NCBI GenBank assembly: GCA_046350815.1
Contig: JAXLZO010000001.1
Location: forward strand, 480,001 to 512,000
From: Candidatus Saccharimonadota bacterium
GTDB taxonomy: Bacteria; Patescibacteriota; Gracilibacteria; BD1-5; UBA2023
Length of the DNA stretch: 32,000 bases
Reading direction: 5' to 3'
A program made the position numbers and the translations under genes. Below are positions 4,284-29,223 of the stretch, piece by piece. The notes under the pieces were generated by a model. It searched no databases. It was given only the letters and a program-made list of their open reading frames with translations, and was not told where the DNA came from. Within the stretch, counting starts at the first letter, position 1. Every line of letters starts with the position of its first letter.

Positions 4284-5036
4284 GGGTCTAAACCAGTTGA
4301 CAGGATAAATTATCCCATAAACTTGGCTCTATGATCAGTAAAACTACCTATAGGAAAAAATCACGAATTTGAGATGCAAAAATAAGAGAAATTGTGAAAT
4401 ATTTTTCTCTGGATTTTACTTCAGATAAAACAGCGGTATTAACAGGTCTCAATCCAAAAACAACACAGGATTGGTATAGATATATCAGAAAGGCGATAGC
4501 CTTTCTCTGTGAGAGAGAAAAGAATGAAATATGGACTGGAAATGTTGAGATAGATGAGAGTTACTTCTGACCAACAAGAGTCCGATGAAAGAGAGGAAGG
4601 TGAGCTGGTATGAAGACAATAGTCTTTGGTTTACTCAAAAGAAACTGAAAAGTATATACTGAGATAGTTCCTGATGTAAAAGCAAGGACTCTCGTGCCAA
4701 TCATTCGATGAAAACTTCGTATAGAAGAGTCTGAGATTAACAGTGATGGATGGTGAGCTTATGATGGGCTTGTAGATATTGGATATGAGAAACACTACCG
4801 TGTTCATCACGGAGCAAATGAATTTGCAAGATGAACTCAACACATTAATTGAATAGAGTCATTTTGGAGTTATACCAAAAGAAGACTCTCTCAATTCAAT
4901 GGAATCAAGAAAGTCTACTTCTACTATTTTTTGAAAGAATCTGAATTCAGATATAATTGTCGTATTCAATGAAAAGATATTTATAAGGAAGTGCTAAAGT
5001 TACTTCGTCAATATAACCCGTAACTGGTTTAGACCC
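4284..5036 (+). mobile_element. IS1595-family (ISXO2-like) insertion sequence, apparently intact.
   Basis: Perfect 15-bp terminal inverted repeats gggtctaaaccagtt (4284-4298) / aactggtttagaccc (5022-5036). They are flanked by the direct repeat tagtatt (4277-4283 and 5037-5043). The element encodes a DDE_Tnp_IS1595-like transposase. Confidence 0.85.
4331..5023 (+). CDS. IS1595-family DDE transposase.
   Basis: 230-aa ORF once about 10 in-frame TGA are read as Gly. Motifs seen: IDESYFGP.RVRGKRGRGAG.KT.VFGLLKR.GKVYT, SDGWGAYDGL...GY.H..V.H...EFARG..HINGIESFWSY.KRRL..F.GI. The stop TAA 5021-5023 overlaps the right inverted repeat. Confidence 0.85.
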
Positions 5037-5816: not shown

Positions 5817-6626
5817 ATGTTATATCAAGTTGTATGCCTCGAGTCCGGGATGGGACTGGATGGTTGGACCTACCGATCAAATCAATCTCTTGCTCCTGGA
5901 ATGTTGGTGGAAGTGCCACTACGAAAGCAGCACGTTTTTGGTATGATTTTGAGAGAAATATCGAATGAAGACATGACGATTCTCTATAGTGAGATTGAAC
6001 GAATTTACGACTGAGTGAGGATTATGAGTGAACAAAAAATACAAGTACTTACCTCGCTCGCTCTTGAATATGCGATGCCAATTTCCAAGATATTTGCGCT
6101 TTTTTATACCAAAGAATTACTTGCCTCGCTCGCTCATCACAAGCCTCAATCAAAGCTCGGTACTTCTCACTCCATTATTGAACCTGGTGCTGGAGAAATT
6201 CATATTACCAAGTTTATGAATCAATTTCTCCAAGATGATGGGGTTCATTCATTTCCATATGAGCGATTGAAAATCATGGGGATCGAGAATGATATGAAAC
6301 TTATCTCATCGCAATCCACTCAAAAAGAACGTCGAACAGTATGGATAGAGAGTCTTCTTGGTCAACGTTCCTCACTCTATGGGACGAGAGAAGTACTGCG
6401 TTGTCCAGTAGAACATTATTCACAAATCACATACTATCTCCCACATATTCACGACGAATGGTATCATATGCTCCATCACTATAGAATACTCGATGTTCTG
6501 GAAACTATGCGAGTATATCTCGGTATAAAAATACGCATCGTTGCCCCACGTCTGTCGAGTGAACTCATCGGTTTGTATCATTTGCATCAATATCAACTCT
6601 TTGAAGGACATATATGAAATCTATAA
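5817..6626 (+). CDS. PriA-like protein, short and degenerate (N-terminal DNA-binding region plus a remnant of helicase lobe 1).
   Basis: Track ORFs 5817-6014 and 6015-6617 join in one frame through TGA, ending at TAA 6624-6626. The N-terminus ...GMLVEVPLRKQHVFGMIL... is PriA 3'BD-like. LISSQSTQKERRTVWIESLLGQRSSLYGTREVLRCP matches the PriA pattern lHS.ls..eR...W.....G...iviGtRSAlF.P. The Walker A position reads PGAGEIH and the DEEH position reads HIHDEWYH. There is no Zn-finger region or second helicase lobe. Confidence 0.55.
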
Positions 6627-8980: not shown

Positions 8981-10060
8981 ATTCTAACCCTAAACGCAAC
9001 AAAACTTGGAAACATATGTCATGGGGAATAGAGTATGCCGATAGGCATACTCTACAACCTATATACCACATAATTTCCTATGCAACTTACTCTTGGAGAA
9101 CTCTTTGTAATAAAGGCCTTCGTATCTGAAGGATATATCGATAGTGAGATAGCGAGAAAGGTTGGACGGAACCGATCTATCCTCACTCGATTATTTCAGA
9201 AGTATGATCGTGATACATTCGATCCTGAGAAAGTTATCCGAGACCGTACGGAAAGGAAGAAGATAAGATCTCTCGCGTATTGTCGGATTCATCCATGAGG
9301 AGAACTTGCTGGCTATATCGATACAAAGATCCGGGATGGGCTCTCTCCTGATCAAGTAGCTGGAAGCTGGATCAAATACCAACAAGAGAAAGGAATCATC
9401 GAGAAGCTCTCCAAAGACACCGTGTACGCATTCGTCTATGAGCAAATGCCAGAACTCATAAAAATATACTTTCGTCGTAAAGGAAAAAAGTATCGAGATC
9501 GCAAGCAGGAGAAGGTTGTCTGAAAGTACCAGATTCAAGAAAGACGAATGATCGATGAACGACCGAAGGAAATTGAGGAGAGAGCAAGGATTGGAGACTG
9601 GGAAGGAGATACGATCATCTGAAAAGATCGTAGGTGAGCCATCTTGACTCTCGTTGAGAGAAAAACAGGGTACCTGATGGCTCATAAGTTGGAGCAAGGG
9701 AAAAACACTGAGTGAGTCACAAGTGCAGTAGAAAAACTTTGGAGTAGTATGCCTCATGAAAAAAGAAAAACTCTCACCGTAGATAACGGACGAGAGTTTG
9801 CTGATCATAAGATGTTTGAATATAGTACCAAGACGATTATTTACTTCGCTCACCCATACCATTCATGGGAGCGAGGAACCAATGAGAATACGAATGGACT
9901 CCTAAGAGAGTATATCCCAAAGAAGACTAACTTCTCCACTATAACACAGGAGCAACTTGATATTTTCGTGGAAAAGATAAACTCCAGACCAAGAAAGAGG
10001 CTTTGATACTTTACCCCCAATGAAATGTTTCATCAAGTTTGTTGCGTTTCGGTTTAGAAT
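8981..10060 (+). mobile_element. IS30-family insertion sequence.
   Basis: Imperfect terminal inverted repeats of about 28 bp: attctaaccctaaacgcaacaaaacttg (from 8981) versus the reverse complement of caagtttgttgcgtttcggtttagaat (10034-10060). Three positions differ. The transposase stop lies inside the right repeat. The exact right boundary is ambiguous because tagaat is duplicated (10055-10067). Confidence 0.8.
9080..10057 (+). CDS. IS30-family DDE transposase.
   Basis: Track ORFs 9080-9298 and 9749-10006 join in one frame through TGA, ending at TAG 10055-10057. There is an N-terminal HTH region. Motifs seen: RIGDWEGDTIIGK, TVDNGREFA, HPYHSWERGTNENTNGLLREY.PK. Confidence 0.9.
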
Positions 10061-12408: not shown

Positions 12409-12489
12409 ATCAATTCCTACACTCAGAAATAAAAATAATACAAATAATTTTTTACATACAAGACTTTATTTGTATTATTACAAAAACCT

Positions 12490-14094
12490 ATGAAATACAT
12501 CTTTGTCACCGGTGGTGTTCTCTCCGGTATTGGTAAGGGTATCGCGGCAGCCTCCATTTGAGCGATTCTCAAATGAATGGGTCAACAGGTATTTTGTCAG
12601 AAATTTGACTGATACCTCAATGTTGATCCTGGTACGATGAGTCCATTTCAACATGGAGAAGTGTTCGTGACGAATGATGGAGCTGAGACAGATCTCGATC
12701 TCGGACATTATGAACGATTTCTCGATATTAATCTCTCAAAGCTTTCATCCTTTACTTCAGGTAAGCTTTATGAAGAAATTATTACTCGCGAGAGAAAATG
12801 AGATTATTTAGGTGGGACAGTACAGATTGTCCCACATCTGACGGATCTTGTAAAAGAAAAAATTATTCAAGCGCAAAAATCAAGCGGTGCAGATATAAGT
12901 ATAGTGGAGATTGGTGGTACGATTGGTGACATGGAGAATGAGTATCTCCTAGAATCGGCACGTCAGATGCAGCATGATCTCGGACGTGAAAATGTGATTT
13001 TTGTTCATGTAGTACTTCTTCCATATCTTTGAGCAAGCAAAGAATTCAAATCAAAACCAATTCAACACTCTGTCCGTACTATGATGAGTTATGGATTGTC
13101 TCCGGATTTTTTGGTAGTTCGTGCGGATACGGAAATTGCTGATGATATGGTAGAAAAAATCGCCCGATCATGTTGAATCGTACGTGAACATGTTATATCA
13201 GCACCAACACTTGATACGATATATCGCGTTCCTCTTGCATTTGAATCACAGAATTTCTGATATGAGCTCGCAAGAGAGCTTCATATTTCACCGGTCGTAC
13301 CAAATATGGAAAAATGGACGAATCTTGTGTGCAATATTGATAGTTCTCATGAGGTTATCAATATTGCTATGGTTGGAAAATATGTTTGACTTGAAGATGC
13401 ATATTATTCTCTCAATGAATGATTACGTGCTGCTGGTTTTGCCTTTCAGAAGCGTGTAAAAATTGAATTTATCGAAGCTGAGGATGTTGAAAAACGATGA
13501 ATATCGCTTCTGTACTGATTTGACGGAATATGTATTCCAGGGTGATTTTGAACACGCTGAGTTGATGGTATGGTCCTGACGGCACAATACGCACGTGAAA
13601 ATAACATTCCTTTCTTGGGTATCTGCCTCGGATCGCAGATTATGGCAATCGAATTTGCTCGAAATGTACTTGGTATACAGGATGCATCGAGTGAGGAATT
13701 CACTCCAGAGTGATGAAATAACATTATTCATATTATGTCCGATCAGAAGAATCTGACAACAAAAGGATGAAATATGCGTCTCGGCCTTTATCCGTGTGTC
13801 ATTCGTGATGATACGCTCGCTGAAAGGGTCTACAAGGAACAAATAGCGTCATGAACGGATAATACCGTTTTTGAGCGACATCGACATCGATTTGAATTCA
13901 ATCCGACGTATCGAGATAAGATGGAAGAAAAAGGATTCATCGTGTCTGCGAGTTCACCTGATGATATGCTCGCGGAAATAGTTGAAATCAAGAATCATCC
14001 GTATATGATAGCGACTCAGGCTCATCCGGAGCTCATATCGCGTCCATTCCGACCCCATCCGTTATTTTTAGGATTTATTGGTGCCATGCTATAA
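12490..14094 (+). CDS. pyrG: CTP synthase.
   Basis: [23 protein letters not shown]... begins at ATG 12490 and the gene ends at TAA 12492+... (14092-14094), giving 534 aa once in-frame TGA is read as Gly. ERK(TGA)[12 protein letters not shown] aligns with E. coli ERRGDYLGATVQVIPH. The glutamine amidotransferase motifs GICLG and HPE are present. Confidence 0.95.
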
Positions 14095-23524: not shown

Positions 23525-25303
23525 CTACTCACTCCGTATCTCAATATAGAGTTCTTCAAGCTGCTTTTCATCTACCAAGCTCGGTGCACGCATCATAGCA
23601 TCTTCTGCTTTTCCACTCTTTGGGAACGCATAGATTTCGCGAATATTGGTCTCATCCGAGAGAATCATGAGTACTCGATCGAACCCGAATGCAAATCCAC
23701 CATGTGGAGGTACTCCGTACCCGAATGCTTCGTACATAGCTCCGAATTTTTCTTTTACCTCTGCTTCGCCTTTTCCAACGATTTCAAATGCTTTTACAAG
23801 TGCATTCAGATCATGGTTACGAATCGATCCAGAGAGAATCTCATATCCATTGAGTGCGAGATCATATTGACATCCGTAGATGGAGAGTGGATCCACTCCA
23901 GGAGCAAAGGCATCAACCCCACCATGAGGCATAGAGAATGGATTGTGTTCGAAATCATACGATCCATCATCTTTCTTCTCATACATAGGGAAGTCAGTCA
24001 CCCATACGAATACAAGACTGTCTTTGTCAGCGAGTGAGAGCATATCGCGCAGTGCAAGTCGAACTCCACCAAGAGCCTTATTCACGCTTTCACGAGTATC
24101 AGCCCCGAAGAAGATCATATCACCTACCTCTGCTCTGAGTTTTTCTGTAAGGGCAGTAATTTCTGTCTCAGAGAGAAACTTGAGTATAGGACTCTTGGGT
24201 CCATCAGCTTCATAGGTAACATAGGCGAGACCCTTTGCTCCATTTGCACGAGCAACATCAGTGATGCTATCAATTTGTGATCGACTCAGAGTTTTCCCAG
24301 GAAGCTTAAATGCCTTCACAACGCCACCAAAATCGAGTGCTCACTTGAACACGGAGAATGCTGAATCCTGAAAAATACTCGATACATCTTCGAAGTGAAG
24401 ATCAAATCGAAGATCTGGCTTGTCTGATCCATAGAGATCCTTTGCTTGAGTATGTGTGAGCCGGATGAATTGACCACTTTCTTCAAGTCGTGCAATGGTT
24501 TTTTGTGGTGCACTATGATGGGAGAGTTTCTTGATGAAGTCTTCTGCAACAGCGAAAATATCTTCTTGATCGACAAAGCTCATTTCACAATCTATCTGGT
24601 AGAACTCACATGAGTGCCGATCTGCACGAGGATCTTCATCACGAAAACATGGTGCAATCTGGAAATACTTATCCACTCCAGCTACCATGAGAAGTTGTTT
24701 GTACTGTTGCGGTGCTTGTGGGAGTGCATAGAACTTACCTGGATGCAAGCGGGATGGGATGAGATAGTCACGAGCCCCCTCGGGAGAAGACGATGTGAAT
24801 ATCGGAGTTTGTACTTCGAGAAATCATCGATCTGAAAAATACTCACGAGTAAACCGATTCATCTTTGCTCTCAGCTCAATCTTAGCTCGCATTGCAGGGC
24901 GTCTGAGATCGAGGTATCGATATTTGAATCGAACATCCTCAGAAGTATTGGTCTTGTCAGATATCTCAAACGGAGGGGTATTTGCCTTGGTGAGAATCTT
25001 GGCTTCGCTAATGAGCACTTCGATCTCCCCTGTTGCGATCTTTGCATTCGTTTGACCTTCAGGACGTGATCGCACGATCCCAGTAAAATTCACTACGTAT
25101 TCACCACGAGCAGAATCAGCAATAGTATATGCATCAGGATGAGATATTGGATCAAATACGGTCTGAGTGATACCATAGCGATCACGAAGATCGATAAATA
25201 TGACACCACCATGGTCTCGACGAGTATCTACCCAACCAGAGAGAGTAATAGTTTGCCCAATATGAGTTGCAGTGAGTTCACCACATGTATGAGTTCGAAG
25301 CAT
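23525..25303 (-). CDS. aspS: Aspartyl-tRNA synthetase (bacterial type, 592 aa).
   Basis: Track ORFs 23525-24319, 24341-24748 and 24824-25303 share one frame and are separated by two TGA. FSDR(TGA)FLEVQTP aligns with E. coli MDDHGFLDIETP. Class II motifs seen: [36 protein letters not shown]. Confidence 0.95.
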
Positions 25304-25332: not shown

Positions 25333-25848
25333 TTAAGGATTTATACGTATCAGATAGTTTCGCTTGCGCTCACCACCATATTCCACATGTTTGGTGAAAA
25401 TACCACCATTTTTCTCGATAACTTTTGTGGAGGCAATGTTATCAGCGAAGCATGTGAGAAGAAGTTTATCAAGTCCGATTTTCTTGGCTTCTGCGATGCC
25501 AAGTCTGAAGGCTTCCGTAGCATATCATTTACCACGCTCAGATGGGCGTATAGCGTACTCGATATTGCCACCAACTTTTTGAAGTTCATCAAGACTCACT
25601 TTGTGCCGAAGATAGAGTCCTCAGAGGATACGATTATCCTGCATAATGAAGAAGAGTGTCGATGGAGGAGTCCATTTTGAAACGATGGTACGATTCGTCT
25701 CGGTAATATTGAAGAATGAGTCAAAATCATCTCCAGCAAAGAGTGCTCTTGGTGAAACATTGTTAATATCTTCCAGAAGCGACCATTCTGCAATGAGCTC
25801 TTCCCATTGATCTTTATGTGAGTAATTCGGTATAATGAGTTCTAACAT
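25333..25848 (-). CDS. GNAT-family acetyltransferase, paralogue A of a tandem trio.
   Basis: Manual translation from ATG 25848 to TAA 25333-25335 with TGA read as Gly. It gives MLELIIPNYSHKDQWEELIAEW...GGNIEYAIRPSERGKGYATEAFRLGIAEAKKIGLDKLLLTCFADNIAS.KVIEKNGG. Confidence 0.75.
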
Positions 25849-25859
25849 AAGATTGAGCG

Positions 25860-26369
25860 TTAAAGTAAATTGATCCAATATCTTCGTGATTTTACTCAGT
25901 CTCTTTGCATATATCATTCAAACTTTCATCCATTTTCCTCGATCACTTTTACAGAAGCAATATTGTCATGATCACATGTAATGAGTATGCGGTCGATTCA
26001 TAGATTCTTCGCTTCTTTGAGGGCGAGTCAGAGCATTTGTGTTGCATAGCCTTTTCGTCTCGCAGATGGTCGGATACCATACCCAATATGTCCTCATGTC
26101 TCAATCAATTTTGGATGATTGATATGATAACGAATCTGGATAGCTCAGAGGATATTAGGTCCTGTATCGTCAACAAGAAAGAAAAGAGTAGAGTTGATCC
26201 CTCATTCATTGTCTGTGAGATCCTTGGTGACAATACGAAGAAAATCTTCGTATGTTTCTCACATAAAGAGTTTTCAGGGAGAAGTGGGTATTTCATGATC
26301 TCTCCATTCTCGTATCATCTCGATGCATTGATTCTTATGAGATTCATTGGGGAATTCCAGTTTGAGCAT
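25860..26369 (-). CDS. GNAT-family acetyltransferase, paralogue B.
   Basis: This gene is invisible in the standard-code track because of about 12 TGA. Manual translation runs from ATG 26369 to TAA 25860-25862. It gives MLKLEFPNESHKNQCIEMIREW...GGHIGYGIRPSARRKGYATQMLGLALKEAKNLGIDRILITCDHDNIAS.KVIEENGG. Confidence 0.75.
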
Positions 26370-26379
26370 ATTTTGTGAG

Positions 26380-26892
26380 TTAGACTGTAATCCAATATCT
26401 TCTTACCTTTTTCCTATTAAAATCAGCATGTCTCTCAAATGTTCATCCATTTGCTTCGATAGTACGGTAGGATCATACATTTTCATCAAGGCAGGTAAGC
26501 AATATTTTTTCTATTTCTAGGTTTTTTGCCTCTTGTTTTCCCAATCTCAGTGCTTCCGTTGCATAACCTTTTTTCCTTTCGGATGGGCGGATGCCATACC
26601 CGATGTGCCCACCTATTTCTCTCAAGAAATCATTTTCTATATTATGACGGATATCGAGAGCGCCGAGTATGCGATCTCGAGTCGAGTCTATGATAAAAAA
26701 GAGAGATGCTGGAACTCTGCCCTCTGGTGGATTATCACGAGCATCTCTTGTGATTTGGAGGAATTCTTCATAATTCGCACCTGCGAAGAGATTGTCAGGA
26801 TCAGTAGGGATGATTTCATGTTGCCCCCATTCCTTAATCATCTCAATATATCGATCTTTGTGGGATTCGTTCGGAAATTTAAGTTTGAGCAT
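26380..26892 (-). CDS. GNAT-family acetyltransferase, paralogue C.
   Basis: This is the internal part of track ORF 26473-27063, running from ATG 26892 through TGA to TAA 26380-26382. It gives MLKLKFPNESHKDRYIEMIKEW...GGHIGYGIRPSERKKGYATEALRLGKQEAKNLEIEKILLTC. Confidence 0.75.
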
Positions 26893-26917: not shown

Positions 26918-27262
26918 TTAATATCCTCGATCCTTGTTTTTCTGCACTTTTCGCTGGAGTGCCTCATCGAGACTCGTAACTCCAGTGGATTTGAGTAACA
27001 GAAGAAGGGTGATGAGTACATCGCTTGCTTCATTTTCAAGATCCTCGATACAAAACGCATCAACTTTCCTTTGAGAAAACGAGCATTTTGTGAATTTTCT
27101 CACTTCTGCCGCGAGCTCACCGACTTCTTCCGTGAGACACGAGAGTGCCGAGAGGGTATGCTCTGTCTGAGAGAGCGATTTCTTGATCGTGAGTTCAGGG
27201 GTTTTATCATGAATATGATCAATATATTGCATGAGCTCGTTCCACACGGTTTCTGAGATCAT
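26918..27262 (-). CDS. MazG-like nucleoside-triphosphate pyrophosphohydrolase (single-domain, 114 aa).
   Basis: Track ORF 26918-27271; ATG 27262 is preferred as the start. Motifs seen: LTEEVGELAAEVRK (the EExGE motif) and LENEASDVLITLLLL...LDEAL..K..KN..R. Confidence 0.7.
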   Translation of the reverse strand: MISETVWNELMQYIDHIHDKTPELTIKKSLSQTEHTLSALSCLTEEVGELAAEVRKFTKCSFSQRKVDAFCIEDLENEASDVLITLLLLLKSTGVTSLDEALQRKVQKNKDRGY

Positions 27263-27440
27263 AAAAAGCACACAAAAGAAATAAAAACTTTCATGTGCTT
27301 CGGTTCGATAGTGTGTCGAAAGGTGCCACCGAGGCTGTACTTGATTGATATTCTATGACGGGAATCTCCCGGAAGGTTCTACTCGGCAATACCTTTCTTC
27401 CTTCAGCTCGCGGGTGTTGGCCGCTCAGATGCTTTTATTA
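27263..27440 (-). promoter_or_regulatory. T-box-like riboswitch leader with competing antiterminator and terminator (or sequestrator) helices.
   Basis: Read on the minus strand: helix A1 GCCUCGG (plus-strand 27329-27335), then the bulge UGGCACC(U), which matches the T-box core GGUGGNACC. Helix A2 is UUCGA-CACACUA-UCGAA (27304-27320), and the A1 3' strand is CCGAAGC (27297-27303). A competing 13-bp hairpin AAGCACAUGAAAG / CUUUUGUGUGCUU (27266-27300) shares AAGC with A1. It is followed by UUU and the ATG of the MazG-like gene. The region is clearly more GC-rich than the surrounding intergenic DNA. I could not define Stem I or the specifier by eye. Confidence 0.6.
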
Positions 27441-27446
27441 CTAAGA

Positions 27447-27474
27447 AGTTTAGGAACCTGCACAAGAAAGTCAA
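27447..27474 (-). promoter_or_regulatory. Sigma70-like promoter for the T-box leader.
   Basis: On the minus strand: TTGACT (plus-strand 27469-27474), 16-nt spacer, TAAACT (27447-27452). Confidence 0.4.
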
Positions 27475-27561: not shown

Positions 27562-29223
27562 ATGTTAGATAAAAGTAAATTATCAGATGCAAGAGAAGAA
27601 TTACCATACGATAATTTTGCTAAGAATTTCAACTTCTATGATCATCTTCTTACCTCCATTGAGACAAGCTATTTGTGGAGAGGATTTGCTGATGAAGCCT
27701 TTAAACATTATGTTTGTACACGAGATGAAATTTTGCGACTTGATCTTGTTGATGATGTGGCAAATGGACGGATCATATCAATGCCCGTAAAGAATGTGGT
27801 CACGAAAAAACAGACAGATGTTGCAGAAATACTGCGTCGTGACATTATTGGGCAGGAAAAAGGTGAGGATATGACTGATTGAGTTGAGTTCCTCAGAGGA
27901 CTCCTCCTTGCTCGATCGATACTCATACCTGAGGGTATTTATTTTAAGATCCAAAGATTTTTTCATCACGTACATCCGGATTATCATAGTCAACGATTTG
28001 ATCTTACTTTGAGTCAATGATTCGCAGGTTTAGAGAAAAAATTTGCACATATACTCAAATCGCACCATAATTTTATCACAGTTCCTCAAGATGAAGATCA
28101 GTGATTTGAGTATGAAAATAGATCTCTCCTGCAATATATTCAAAGTTCACTTGAGGAAATCTGATCTTATCACGGTAATATCACAGAGCTTTCTTCTCGG
28201 CAGCGTTATGCTTTTCTCGTGCTGAAACGTATTTGTCGTGAATTTATCTACGCGTCTCAGGCACAACTTGAACTTCATAAGAAGATTGCAGATTGGGTCA
28301 AGCAGAAAAAAAAGCAAGGAAAGTCAGAAAAATCAGATACTACCTTTACTCGTCTTTCACAGGAAAAATCTAATTTCAATGACACGAGAGAAGACAAGGC
28401 TCTCGAATACATTTACCAGTGTTTTGTTCGTATTGATAATATACGCACAAAGAATTATGAGAGAAGGACTACACTCTGAAAAATCATTGTCAGAAAAAAT
28501 GACTCTACGGAAGAGTTGCAAATCATGAAAGAGCGATTAAATATTATTCAGTCTCAATATCCAGATCTTGAGGAAACTTGTCGGTATATCTCTGAAAAAA
28601 TAGAAGAAATTGCTGGTATCAAATCTCTATGAATAGAAAGAAAATCTCGTGAGTTGGTGGAGTCCATTCTTCAATGAGATGATTTGTTGCAAGATGCGAA
28701 TTCCTGAAATAATGAAACGTACGAAGAGAGTATTATCACTCGAAAGACGATTCGCTCTATTGATAGATATATTCAATATTTGGGTACTGTTTGATCTTCA
28801 ACCAATGATACAAAATCAAATAGTGTCTGAGATGGGCTCACTTTCAATCAGACAATTCTTCCATTTTTGCGTTATATGATCAATGGTATACGCTCAGGAA
28901 AATTTTCTTCAACATCGTTGAATATTTCACAGATATTTGTTGCTTTCAAGGAAGATTTTGCTCATTCATGATCAAAGAATGGATCAAGATTACTCGAAGT
29001 ATACAAAGAGTTCTTTATGGAACAGAACGTTCAAGGTAATATTGTTACAATTTTACCCCGGATGACATTTGTACTCGATAATATTGGTGATTTTATTGGA
29101 TGATCTGCACATGGAAATCGTCAGGGTTGTGCTGTTATTACTCGTCGGAGTCGAGAATTCTTCGCAGGACCAGAGTGGAAAAAAATAGTAAGAGAGTTTC
29201 CAAAAGATTCTATTCAAAACTAA
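27562..29223 (+). CDS. Hypothetical protein of 553 aa with no domain I recognise.
   Basis: One frame joins track ORFs 27562-27882 and 28219-28479 through many TGA, ending at TAA 29221-29223. The sequence is charged and looks predominantly helical. Confidence 0.65.

What the first reader, a model, noticed from the sequence alone, without database searches (positions are those of the whole stretch)
27263..27474. T-box-like riboswitch leader, unusually short, with a UGGC bulge implying a tRNA with discriminator G
A GC-enriched, about 180-nt minus-strand leader follows a TTGACT-N16-TAAACT promoter. It reproduces the canonical T-box antiterminator layout. That layout is helix A1, then the bulge UGGCACC (core GGUGGNACC), then helix A2 and the A1 3' strand. 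A1 overlaps a 13-bp terminator or sequestrator hairpin that abuts the first start codon. In T-boxes the UGGN bulge pairs with the tRNA 3' NCCA end. N = C predicts discriminator G73, which fits tRNA-Asp or tRNA-Asn and matches aspS in the same unit. I could not locate a canonical Stem I, K-turn or specifier; candidate codons are GAU in GGGAGAUUCCC and AAU in AGAAUAUC. The leader is much shorter than classical T-boxes. Because the hairpin touches the AUG and no SD is visible, control could act on translation rather than transcription.
Basis: partly seen in the sequence, partly recalled or inferred. Interest (0 to 1): 0.7.

Follow-up and report, generated by a model that had tools for sequence, protein, structure and literature searches.

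The report
Minimal asparagine T-box before aspS operon
The conserved leader is a very divergent, stripped-down T-box riboswitch that most likely reads uncharged tRNA-Asn to let transcription run into a mazG-GNAT-aspS operon in a bacterium that reads UGA as glycine; it matters because it lacks two parts (long Stem I, Stem III) that textbook T-boxes are said to need and is invisible to the standard Rfam model.

Summary
Window 27263-27474 (minus strand) holds a promoter, a core of about 137 nt and a hairpin with a U-run that ends at the mazG ATG.

The core matches the crystallised Nocardia and Mycobacterium ileS T-box motif by motif. It has a K-turn, then a 4-bp Stem I whose 7-nt apical loop is CCAACAC (CCAUCAC in ileS). 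It also has the Stem II S-turn (AAGAA/AGUAGAA), the IIA/B pseudoknot with the F-box CCGUCA, and A1-UGGCACC-A2.

Nine orthologues and 50 other short-Stem-I T-boxes from metagenomes covary in every helix that varies. The loop triplet predicts the downstream synthetase without exception: AUC goes with ileS, GAC or AAC with aspS or asnS, and GUC with valS.

Stem III is absent. The spacer from the F-box to GGUGG (pseudoknot 3' strand, linker and most of the A1 5' strand) is 25 nt and unstructured. The terminator reuses GAAGC of the A1 3' strand.

Rfam RF00230 gives no hit. It also scores known actinobacterial ileS-type leaders below threshold, so that miss is uninformative.

This is a new variant of a known kind. 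tRNA binding, charge sensing and termination are untested.

The parts
27469..27474 (-). -35 hexamer TTGACT
   Evidence: Consensus scan. TTGACT or TTGCTA is kept at the same distance in the orthologous loci.
27447..27452 (-). -10 hexamer TAAACT. The inferred transcription start is about 27440, 6-8 nt before the K-turn.
   Evidence: Consensus scan. Orthologues carry TAACAT, TAAAAT, TACTAT or TATTAT here. The start site itself is inferred, not mapped.
27405..27433 (-). Stem I with a basal K-turn: AGC-AUCU-GA-GCGG[CCAACAC]CCGC-GA-GCU
   Evidence: Matches N. farcinica GGC-GAC-GA-UCCGG[CCAUCA]CCGGG-GA-GCC. There is a compensatory change GCGG/CCGC to GCAG/CUGC. Across the class, all 7 pairs show changes on both sides and 91-95% of cells are paired.
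27416..27418 (-). Specifier AAC (Asn), followed by the conserved purine A27415
   Evidence: It occupies the position of the AUC plus A19 in the ileS crystal constructs. The loop triplet agrees with the downstream synthetase in all short-Stem-I relatives. Sister locus L129 has GAC directly before aspS.
27372..27404 (-). Stem II: lower helix GAAGG/CCUUC, S-turn AAGAAA / GAGUAGAA, and capping hairpin GGUAUUGCC
   Evidence: The S-turn strands are identical to N. farcinica and M. tuberculosis (AAGAA / AGUAGAA). Both helices covary.
27350..27371 (-). Stem IIA/B pseudoknot with the F-box CCGUCA (27356-27361). IIB pairs AUUC (27362-27365) with GAAU (27350-27353).
   Evidence: The F-box is identical to N. 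farcinica 87-CCGUCA-92. Pseudoknot pair 193-213 covaries, GC in 28 sequences and UA in 20, although it was not modelled in the covariance model. Within the clade, AUU/AAU changes to ACU/AGU.
27336..27349 (-). Single-stranded linker AUCAAUCAAGUACA, in the place where Stem III normally sits
   Evidence: The 25-nt spacer between the F-box and GGUGG (27331-27355), which contains this linker, folds to 0.0 kcal/mol. 35 of 57 unique relatives have a spacer of 22-26 nt with no hairpin; 22 have 30-34 nt with a 4-5 bp Stem III.
27297..27335 (-). Antiterminator: A1 5' strand GCCUCGG, T-box bulge UGGCACC (27322-27328), A2 hairpin (27304-27321), A1 3' strand CCGAAGC
   Evidence: Invariant within the clade. 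A1 is recovered by RNAalifold. A1 and A2 covary across the class. A2 varies in length and sequence while keeping its pairing: CGA/UCG, CAU/AUG, CGU/ACG.
27263..27301 (-). Intrinsic terminator: GAAGCACAUGAAAG-loop-CUUUUGUGUGCUU(U), ending in a run of five U
   Evidence: MFE is -15.2 kcal/mol against -8.1 for the antiterminator. Its 5' strand uses the GAAGC of the A1 3' strand. A hairpin plus U5-6 is conserved, with sequence change, in all orthologues.
26918..27262 (-). First regulated gene: a MazG-like NTP pyrophosphohydrolase (114 aa)
   Evidence: Pfam PF03819. Orthologues P0001-P0010.
25333..26892 (-). Three tandem GNAT acetyltransferase paralogues
   Evidence: Pfam PF13302 and PF00583. Translation uses UGA = Gly.
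23525..25303 (-). aspS, a bacterial-type aspartate--tRNA ligase (592 aa)
   Evidence: NCBIfam NF001750, 774 bits against a cut-off of 443. The mazG-GNAT-aspS gene order is conserved.

Best explanation
The element is a T-box riboswitch of the reduced, 'class II' architecture. It is specific for tRNA-Asn and controls a mazG-GNAT-GNAT-GNAT-aspS operon by transcription attenuation.

**Proposed mechanism**
1. Transcription starts a few bases before a K-turn.
2. The K-turn positions a 4-bp Stem I whose apical loop presents the codon AAC (plus a 3' purine) to the GUU anticodon.
3. The Stem II S-turn, held in place by the IIA/B pseudoknot, clamps the codon-anticodon duplex. This is what happens in the solved ileS T-box complexes.
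4. If the bound tRNA is uncharged, its 3' GCCA pairs with the UGGC of the bulge and stabilises helices A1 and A2.
5. That ties up the GAAGC which otherwise forms the base of the terminator hairpin next to the U-run, so RNA polymerase reads on into mazG and finally aspS.
6. With charged tRNA, or with no tRNA, the more stable terminator forms.

**Biological logic**
The sensor is tRNA-Asn while the synthetase is AspRS. AspRS is therefore probably non-discriminating and feeds the tRNA-dependent route to Asn-tRNA-Asn.

**Shown versus inferred**
- Shown: the anatomy, homology, covariation, and the agreement between specifier and gene.
- Inferred: tRNA binding, charge sensing without Stem III, termination, and non-discrimination by AspRS.
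For: - **Match to solved T-boxes.** The element is identical motif by motif to the N. farcinica T99 and M. tuberculosis T87 RNAs, whose parts are defined by crystal structures.
- **Orthologues.** Nine distinct orthologous leaders are conserved with compensatory changes. RNAalifold recovers the K-turn stem, Stem I, both parts of Stem II, IIA and A1.
- **Covariance model R1.** Built from the clade alone, it hits 50 further leaders, including actinobacterial ileS-type ones, at E from 1e-19 to 1e-2 (one further weak match at E=0.38), with one hit in the window.
- **Covariation.** 93% of cells are paired, and 26 of 32 pairs show changes on both sides. Slid controls give 27-49%.
- **Pseudoknot.** The unmodelled pseudoknot pair covaries, GC in 28 sequences and UA in 20.
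- **Specifier versus gene.** AUC goes with ileS (about 30 cases), GAC or AAC with aspS or asnS (about 20), and GUC with valS, with no exception.
- **Sister locus.** L129 has GAC and lies directly upstream of a near-identical aspS. L098 has AAC, then an HD hydrolase, then aspS.
- **Bulge base.** UGGC is found only in Asp/Asn leaders.
- **Chain of homology.** RF00230 gives significant sub-threshold hits to class members that R1 links to this element: L094 at 64 bits, L105 at 45.8 and L126 at 38.4.
- **Switch energetics.** The terminator is -15.2 kcal/mol against -8.1 for the antiterminator, and they share 5 nt.
- **Precedent.** An Asn-specific T-box on a tRNA-dependent amidation operon is known in C. 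acetobutylicum (Saad 2012, cited in PMC4574755).
Against: - RF00230 gives no hit even at E<=10 on 200 nt.
- Stem III, described as indispensable for binding the tRNA 3' end, is absent.
- The conserved G-U closing pair of A2 is replaced by U-A plus an extra U.
- A1 contains a C-A mismatch.
- The K-turn bulge is 4 nt rather than 3.
- The terminator and antiterminator overlap by only 5 nt.
- No tRNA-Asn gene from this lineage could be examined. The presence of gatCAB and the absence of asnS are unknown.
- The related loci were fetched with a pattern that already required three T-box motifs, and alignment A3 is fitted to the model.
- There are no expression or binding data.
Confidence: 0.85

Rival explanations
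1. It is a T-box that works on translation. The terminal hairpin would act as a sequestrator that blocks ribosome access to the mazG AUG, as in actinobacterial ileS T-boxes. This could be the only mechanism or act in addition to termination.
For: - Short-Stem-I T-boxes described so far are mostly translational.
- The hairpin ends 5 nt before the AUG in the window.
- The genome uses no Shine-Dalgarno sequences, so initiation probably depends on an unstructured start region.
Against: - The hairpin is always followed directly by U5-6, which is the signature of an intrinsic terminator.
- The distance from hairpin to AUG varies from 2 to 14 nt among orthologues, and the AUG itself is never paired.
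- No SD-like sequence is sequestered.
- Low-GC relatives have canonical terminators that overlap the A1/A2 3' strands.
Confidence: 0.12
2. It is a T-box, but it reads a different tRNA. The candidates are tRNA-Asp, or a tRNA matching another register of the loop CCAACAC: CAA (Gln), ACA (Thr) or CAC (His).
For: - The last gene of the operon is aspS.
- tRNA-Asp also has G73 (established knowledge).
- ACA and CAC are present in both the AAC and the GAC versions of the loop.
Against: - The ..CAC tail is also present in ileS loops (CCAUCAC), where AUC is the specifier seen in crystal structures.
- Only the homologous triplet tracks the downstream synthetase.
- AAC cannot pair with the GUC anticodon at position 36.
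- UGGC does not fit the usual discriminators of tRNA-Thr or tRNA-His (established knowledge).
Confidence: 0.06
3. It is a free-standing small RNA gene with its own promoter and terminator, for example a divergent 6S, SRP or other housekeeping RNA, and is unrelated to the downstream operon.
For: - The promoter and terminator bracket an RNA of about 175 nt.
- No Rfam family matches.
Against: - Every T-box module is present in order.
- The element always sits directly upstream of an aaRS operon whose identity matches the loop triplet.
- There is no similarity to the 6S or SRP models.
Confidence: 0.02

Closest known systems
Actinobacterial ileS translational T-box (M. tuberculosis, N. farcinica; PDB 6UFG, 6UFM; 'ultrashort Stem I' class of Sherwood et al. 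2015)
   Same: - K-turn at the base of a 4-5 bp Stem I with the specifier in the apical loop (CCAUCAC there, CCAACAC here).
- Stem II S-turn AAGAA/AGUAGAA.
- IIA/B pseudoknot with the F-box CCGUCA.
- A1, a 7-nt UGGN-ACC bulge and A2.
- A variable insertion at the tip of A2 in some members.
   Different: - Specifier is Asn instead of Ile.
- No Stem III.
- The A2 closing pair is not G-U.
- The output is a hairpin plus U-run terminator instead of an SD sequestrator.
- The core is about 137 nt against 166 nt.
- The host is a low-GC lineage with genetic code 25 rather than high-GC Actinobacteria.
- Actinobacterial-type leaders score about 38 bits with RF00230; this one gives no hit at all.
Canonical Firmicutes transcriptional T-box (B. 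subtilis tyrS and glyQS type; Rfam RF00230)
   Same: - Terminator/antiterminator switch.
- The UGGN bulge pairs with the tRNA NCCA end.
- K-turn.
- The specifier is followed by a purine, with C at the third position.
   Different: - The long Stem I with its distal interdigitated T-loop platform is missing.
- Stem III is missing.
- Only 5 nt are shared between terminator and antiterminator.
- Nothing scores with the family model.
Low-GC metagenomic short-Stem-I, Stem-III-less T-boxes found here (e.g. L094 ileS, L105 aspS, L134 aspS-nondiscriminating)
   Same: Same overall architecture, including the absence of Stem III and the presence of an intrinsic terminator. The linker is related: AAUGAAGUAAAAAG there against AAUCAAGUACAG here.
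   Different: - They keep a near-consensus T-box sequence (AGGUGGUACCRCG...) and reach 35-64 bits with RF00230.
- The code-25 clade has CUCGGUGGCACCUUUCG and reaches nothing.
- Their terminators overlap A2 as well as A1.
C. acetobutylicum NT-box (Saad et al. 2012, 2013)
   Same: The regulatory logic is the same: a T-box that senses tRNA-Asn and controls genes of the indirect Asn-tRNA-Asn pathway.
   Different: It has the canonical long Stem I with a two-codon specifier loop, and it sits on a different operon.

Membership tests
T-box riboswitch | Score at or above the gathering score of Rfam RF00230 | tested here: not met
   There is no hit at gathering or at E<=10. As a control, actinobacterial-type and other short-Stem-I T-boxes also fall below gathering, at 35-64 bits against 93. 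The test therefore lacks sensitivity for this architecture.
T-box riboswitch | T-box bulge 5'-UGGN-ACC-3' between helices A1 and A2 | tested here: met
   UGGCACC lies at 27322-27328, flanked by GCCUCGG/CCGAAGC and UUCGA/UCGAA. It is invariant in the clade. A1 and A2 covary across the class. Deviations: an extra U after ACC, and a C-A mismatch in A1.
T-box riboswitch | A specifier codon in Stem I that matches the amino-acid class of the regulated gene, followed by a purine | tested here: met
   AAC followed by A sits in the apical loop. The homologous triplet agrees with the downstream aaRS in all short-Stem-I relatives examined, about 50.
T-box riboswitch | K-turn (GA motif) at the base of Stem I | tested here: met
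   The sequence is AGC-AUCU-GA-GCGG...CCGC-GA-GCU. The tandem GA/GA is conserved and the C-stem covaries, AU in 34 sequences and GC in 15. The bulge is 4 nt instead of 3, and the fold itself is not tested.
T-box riboswitch | Stem II S-turn and Stem IIA/B pseudoknot with the F-box | tested here: met
   AAGAAA/GAGUAGAA and CCGUCA are identical to the crystallised ileS T-boxes. Pseudoknot covariation is shown.
T-box riboswitch | Stem III with the flanking purine string (5'-RRRxG-Stem III-AA-3') | tested here: not met
   The 25-nt spacer between the F-box and GGUGG forms no hairpin (0.0 kcal/mol). 35 of 57 relatives are the same. A remnant purine string, AAGUA..CA, is present.
T-box riboswitch | A terminator or sequestrator that is mutually exclusive with the antiterminator | tested here: met
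   The terminator 5' strand includes the GAAGC of the A1 3' strand. The terminator is more stable, at -15.2 against -8.1 kcal/mol.
T-box riboswitch | N of UGGN complementary to the discriminator base of the cognate tRNA | not testable with these tools
   No tRNA gene is present in the window or in any related locus. Indirect support: UGGC occurs only with Asp/Asn specifiers, and bacterial tRNA-Asn and tRNA-Asp carry G73 (established knowledge).
T-box riboswitch | Binding of uncharged tRNA and tRNA-dependent read-through | not testable with these tools
   This needs in vitro transcription and binding assays.
Class II (short Stem I) T-box | Specifier in the apical loop of a short Stem I that lacks the distal T-loop platform | tested here: met
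   A 4-bp stem with a 7-nt loop, aligned to N. farcinica and M. tuberculosis.
Class II (short Stem I) T-box | Translational output (SD sequestration) | tested here: not met
   There is no SD anywhere in the genome. The output element is a hairpin followed by U5-6.

The most novel reading that the evidence does not exclude
This would be a natural minimal T-box class: a core of about 126-140 nt with no Stem I platform and no Stem III, acting on transcription. [quoted passage not shown] Alternatively, it would sense tRNA identity or abundance rather than charge. The clade in this window is its most divergent branch and has retargeted an aspS leader from tRNA-Asp to tRNA-Asn.
Probability: 0.4. Interest if true: 0.75.

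Novelty: new variant of a known kind. Interest (0 to 1): 0.6.

Why it matters
- **It tests two generalisations from structural work on T-boxes.** One is that transcriptional T-boxes need the long Stem I platform. The other is that Stem III is indispensable for capturing the tRNA 3' end. Here both parts are missing in a leader that is conserved, covaries and is paired with a terminator.
- **It extends the known range of tRNA-sensing riboswitches.** It places them in a lineage that reads UGA as glycine and belongs to the reduced-genome candidate phyla, for which the searchable literature reports no T-boxes.
- **It exposes a gap in current detection.** The family model and thresholds in use miss a whole architecture.
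- **It predicts physiology.** AspRS expression is tuned to tRNA-Asn charging, which implies the indirect route to Asn-tRNA. AspRS is also co-regulated with an NTP pyrophosphohydrolase and acetyltransferases.
- **It may be useful.** A functional core of about 137 nt would be attractive for structural work and for engineering.

Tried and rejected
1. **Single-sequence MFE fold.** It predicts a long helix, GAAAGGUAUUGCCGAG/CUCGGUGGCACCUUUC. This is rejected because orthologues replace the 5' arm by a covarying hairpin.
2. **Rfam.** Gathering and E-value scans of the window, of the 200-nt element and of an orthologue gave only noise.
3. **Other RNA classes.** 6S, SRP and other riboswitch classes were considered from motifs. 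None matched, and T-box homology explains every segment.
GAU lies in the variable IIA loop (GAU, AU, UU or AC). AAU lies in the pseudoknot/linker segment and itself changes to AGU in some orthologues.
5. **Genome-contig scan with the MazG protein.** It returned only Bacteroidales and other unrelated MazG homologues at 45% identity or less.
6. **tRNA searches.** ARAGORN found no tRNA gene in the window or in 18 related loci.
7. **Terminator scan.** The scan did not list the terminator. Its rules allow loops of 3-8 nt, while the best fold has a 9-nt loop, which may be why.
8. **Full-length M. tuberculosis discriminator sequence.** It could not be obtained, because the supplements are not held, and Sherwood 2015 could not be read. 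The discriminator comparison therefore rests on review text and on the metagenomic actinobacterial-type leaders.
9. **Literature searches.** Searches for T-boxes in CPR or Gracilibacteria, and for natural T-boxes lacking Stem III, found nothing. The library is incomplete.

Full report
**Observation**

On the minus strand the window reads as follows:
- TTGACT (27469-27474), a 16-nt spacer, then TAAACT (27447-27452).
- About 14 nt later, a G+C-enriched stretch begins.
- The stretch ends in a 13-14 bp hairpin, a run of five U, and the ATG of a 114-aa MazG-like gene at 27260-27262.

G+C is 45-57% in 27280-27430 and 13-30% in the surrounding spacer. GGTGGNACC occurs once in the window, at 27322-27330. 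That alone is weak evidence: 0.21 matches are expected, and 20 of 100 shuffles have at least one.

**Genomic setting**

Under the standard code the window has only short ORFs. Reading UGA as sense gives long ones.
- UGA codons align with Gly in the three GNAT paralogues and fill the PGGFGxRG motif of CTP synthase.
- The organism therefore uses genetic code 25. By established knowledge this code is restricted to Gracilibacteria and Absconditabacteria (SR1).

Downstream of the element, on the same strand, lie these genes:
- mazG
- three GNAT acetyltransferase paralogues
- a bacterial-type aspS (NF001750, 774 bits)
- a lipoprotein
- a class IV aminotransferase
- tlyA

None of 17 genes checked in the window has a Shine-Dalgarno sequence.

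**Conservation in orthologous loci**

MazG homologues led to contigs with the same mazG-GNAT-aspS gene order. The leader is conserved upstream of mazG in eight of them. A metagenome scan added three more members of the clade:
- L143 is identical to the window.
- L098 has the leader, then an HD hydrolase, then aspS.
- L129 has the leader directly before aspS.

The single-sequence MFE structure is not conserved. RNAalifold on the unfitted MAFFT alignment of nine distinct sequences instead predicts the following, with 8 pairs showing compensatory changes:
- a 3-bp helix enclosing a 4-bp hairpin
- a 5-bp helix enclosing an internal loop and a variable hairpin
- a 4-bp hairpin
- helix A1

**Identity**

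The review PMC7583486 describes the parts of T-boxes with a short Stem I. The supplement of PMC10651847 gives the N. farcinica T99 and M. tuberculosis T87 sequences. The window element aligns to them module by module:

| Module | ileS T-box | This element |
|---|---|---|
| K-turn and Stem I | GGC-GAC-GA-UCCGG[CCAUCA]CCGGG-GA-GCC | AGC-AUCU-GA-GCGG[CCAACAC]CCGC-GA-GCU |
| Stem II S-turn | AAGAAC / CAGUAGAA | AAGAAA / GAGUAGAA |
| IIA/B pseudoknot | GGGUGAGCCCCGUCACAGCUC | GGGAGAUUCCCGUCAUAGAAU |
| F-box | CCGUCA | CCGUCA |

After these modules come the A1 5' strand, the bulge UGGCACC, helix A2 and the A1 3' strand. The S-turn residues equivalent to the functionally critical A38, A39, A69, G70 and A71 are all present.

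**Statistics**

- A covariance model built only from the nine clade sequences (R1) finds one copy in the window. It also finds 50 further leaders in the fetched loci, including high-GC actinobacterial ileS-type ones, at E from 1e-13 to 1e-7.
- On the resulting alignment, 93.3% of cells are standard pairs and 26 of 32 pairs show changes on both sides. The covariation score is 0.507 against 0.126 in shuffles. Sliding the 3' partners drops pairing to 27-49%.
- The K-turn stem and Stem I lay outside the search pattern, and all seven of their pairs covary.
- The IIB pseudoknot was not part of the model. Its central pair is GC in 28 sequences and UA in 20. Within the clade, AUU/AAU changes to ACU/AGU.

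Two caveats apply. The loci were retrieved with a pattern requiring AGUAGAAC, CCCGUYA and GGUGGNACC. The alignment is also fitted to the model.

**Why Rfam fails**

- RF00230 gives nothing for the window element or its clade, even at E<=10.
- At gathering it detects only the one leader with a long Stem I, L123 hisS at 106.6 bits.
- In E-value mode it gives significant sub-threshold hits to other short-Stem-I leaders, against a gathering score of 93: L094 at 64 bits, L105 at 45.8, L144 at 40.5, the actinobacterial-type L126 at 38.4 and L135 at 34.6.
- These same leaders are hit by R1, which gives a transitive chain of homology.
The code-25 clade is simply its most divergent branch, with CUCGGUGGCACCUUUCG in place of AGGGUGGUACCGCG.

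**Specifier**

The apical-loop triplet homologous to the AUC of the crystal structures was compared with the first aminoacyl-tRNA synthetase gene downstream, using NCBIfam and BLAST.
- Every AUC loop (about 30) precedes ileS.
- Every GAC or AAC loop (about 20) precedes a bacterial-type aspS, a non-discriminating-type aspS or asnS.
- GUC precedes valS.

The window clade has AAC followed by A. The closely related L129 has GAC in the same position, directly before a near-identical aspS.

UGGC occurs only in Asp/Asn leaders. All Ile and Val leaders have UGGU. This fits G73 in tRNA-Asp and tRNA-Asn and A73 in tRNA-Ile and tRNA-Val, by established knowledge. No tRNA gene of the lineage could be inspected.

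**Expression platform**

- The terminator GAAGCACAUGAAAG...CUUUUGUGUGCUUU plus the U-run folds at -15.2 kcal/mol. The antiterminator folds at -8.1.
- The GAAGC at the base of the terminator is the 3' strand of A1.
- A hairpin plus U5-6 is kept, with sequence changes, in all orthologues. Its distance to the AUG varies from 2 to 14 nt.
- I therefore favour transcription attenuation. In a genome without SD sequences, a hairpin 5 nt from the AUG could also lower initiation, so a dual effect is not excluded.

**What is unusual**

1. Stem III is missing. The spacer between the F-box and GGUGG is 25 nt and unstructured. Among 57 unique pattern hits the spacer length is bimodal: 22-26 nt without a hairpin in 35, and 30-34 nt with a 4-5 bp Stem III in 22. 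The review calls Stem III indispensable.
2. [quoted passage not shown]
3. The core is about 137 nt, against 166 nt for the M. tuberculosis core.
4. A2 is closed by U-A with an extra U rather than by the G-U wobble. A1 has a C-A mismatch. The K-turn bulge has 4 nt.
5. An Asn specifier controls a bacterial-type aspS. This implies a non-discriminating AspRS and the indirect route to Asn-tRNA, with the C. acetobutylicum NT-box as a precedent for the logic.
6. The host uses genetic code 25. The searchable literature holds nothing on T-boxes in candidate phyla or on natural T-boxes lacking Stem III. The library is incomplete, and Sherwood 2015 could not be read.

**Verdict**

The T-box interpretation is supported, with a corrected specifier (Asn) and a corrected output (termination). 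The element is a member of a known kind in a new variant form.

Confidence by claim:
- T-box identity: about 0.93.
- Asn specificity: about 0.8.
- Transcriptional output: about 0.75.

Function, meaning tRNA binding, charge discrimination without Stem III, and termination, remains to be shown experimentally.

Noticed in passing
whole window; e.g. 12448-14091 (+) pyrG, 25333-26892 (-) GNAT paralogues: UGA is a sense codon read as glycine (genetic code 25). UGA positions align with Gly in the paralogues and fill the PGGFGxRG motif of CTP synthase. The standard-code ORF list is badly fragmented.
   Followed up: yes
17 gene starts across the window: There is no Shine-Dalgarno-like sequence upstream of any gene checked. 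The upstream regions are A/U-rich, which suggests SD-independent initiation across the genome.
   Followed up: partly
window 26918-27262 (-); L098 9266-9916; L112 about 5920-6500: In this code-25 lineage each T-box is followed first by a nucleotide-hydrolase gene and only then by the synthetase. The three cases are MazG (plus 1-3 GNATs) then aspS, an HD phosphohydrolase then aspS, and an ITPase/XTPase-like NTPase then ileS. The reason for this co-regulation is unknown.
   Followed up: partly
L004 1680-1740, L006 1640-1690, L010, L106 2960-3010 (tip of helix A2); absent in the window: A module of about 40 nt, CCUCCGCCC-loop-GGGCACCUCC-loop-GGAGG, is inserted at the apex of A2. It occurs in some Asn T-boxes and also in the Ile T-box of the same lineage. 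It could be a shared structural add-on or a small mobile insertion. It has no Rfam match.
   Followed up: no
L091-L152 (metagenome loci): Dozens of low-GC contigs carry ileS, aspS or asnS leaders with a short Stem I, no Stem III and canonical terminators. All score below the RF00230 gathering score. Some, such as L097 (126 nt), even lack the hairpin that caps Stem II. Their taxonomy was not determined.
   Followed up: partly
window 4292-5020 (+) and 9074-10054 (+): Two transposase genes are present: one IS1595/ISXO2-like (PF12762) and one with an rve integrase core (IS30-like).
   Followed up: partly
window 27562-29220 (+): A divergently transcribed 553-aa ORF next to the T-box promoter has no Pfam match.
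   Followed up: no
window 25333-26892 (-); L001-L003: The number of GNAT paralogues between mazG and aspS varies from 1 to 3 among orthologous loci. L002 has a T5orf172/GIY-YIG-like gene inserted there.
   Followed up: no
L094 1736-5221: The IleRS downstream of a short T-box carries an internal insert of the histidine-phosphatase (phosphoglycerate mutase) family, at residues 502-596.
   Followed up: no
L152 1344-1401 (+) and 5335-5393 (-): Two near-identical ileS T-box copies lie in inverted orientation on one 6.7-kb contig, with frameshift-like differences. This is probably an assembly artefact or an inverted duplication.
   Followed up: no
L123 225-379 (-) and 3490-3689 (-): This contig holds a 6S RNA (54.9 bits) and a canonical hisS T-box with a long Stem I (106.6 bits). 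It served as the positive control for Rfam.
   Followed up: yes
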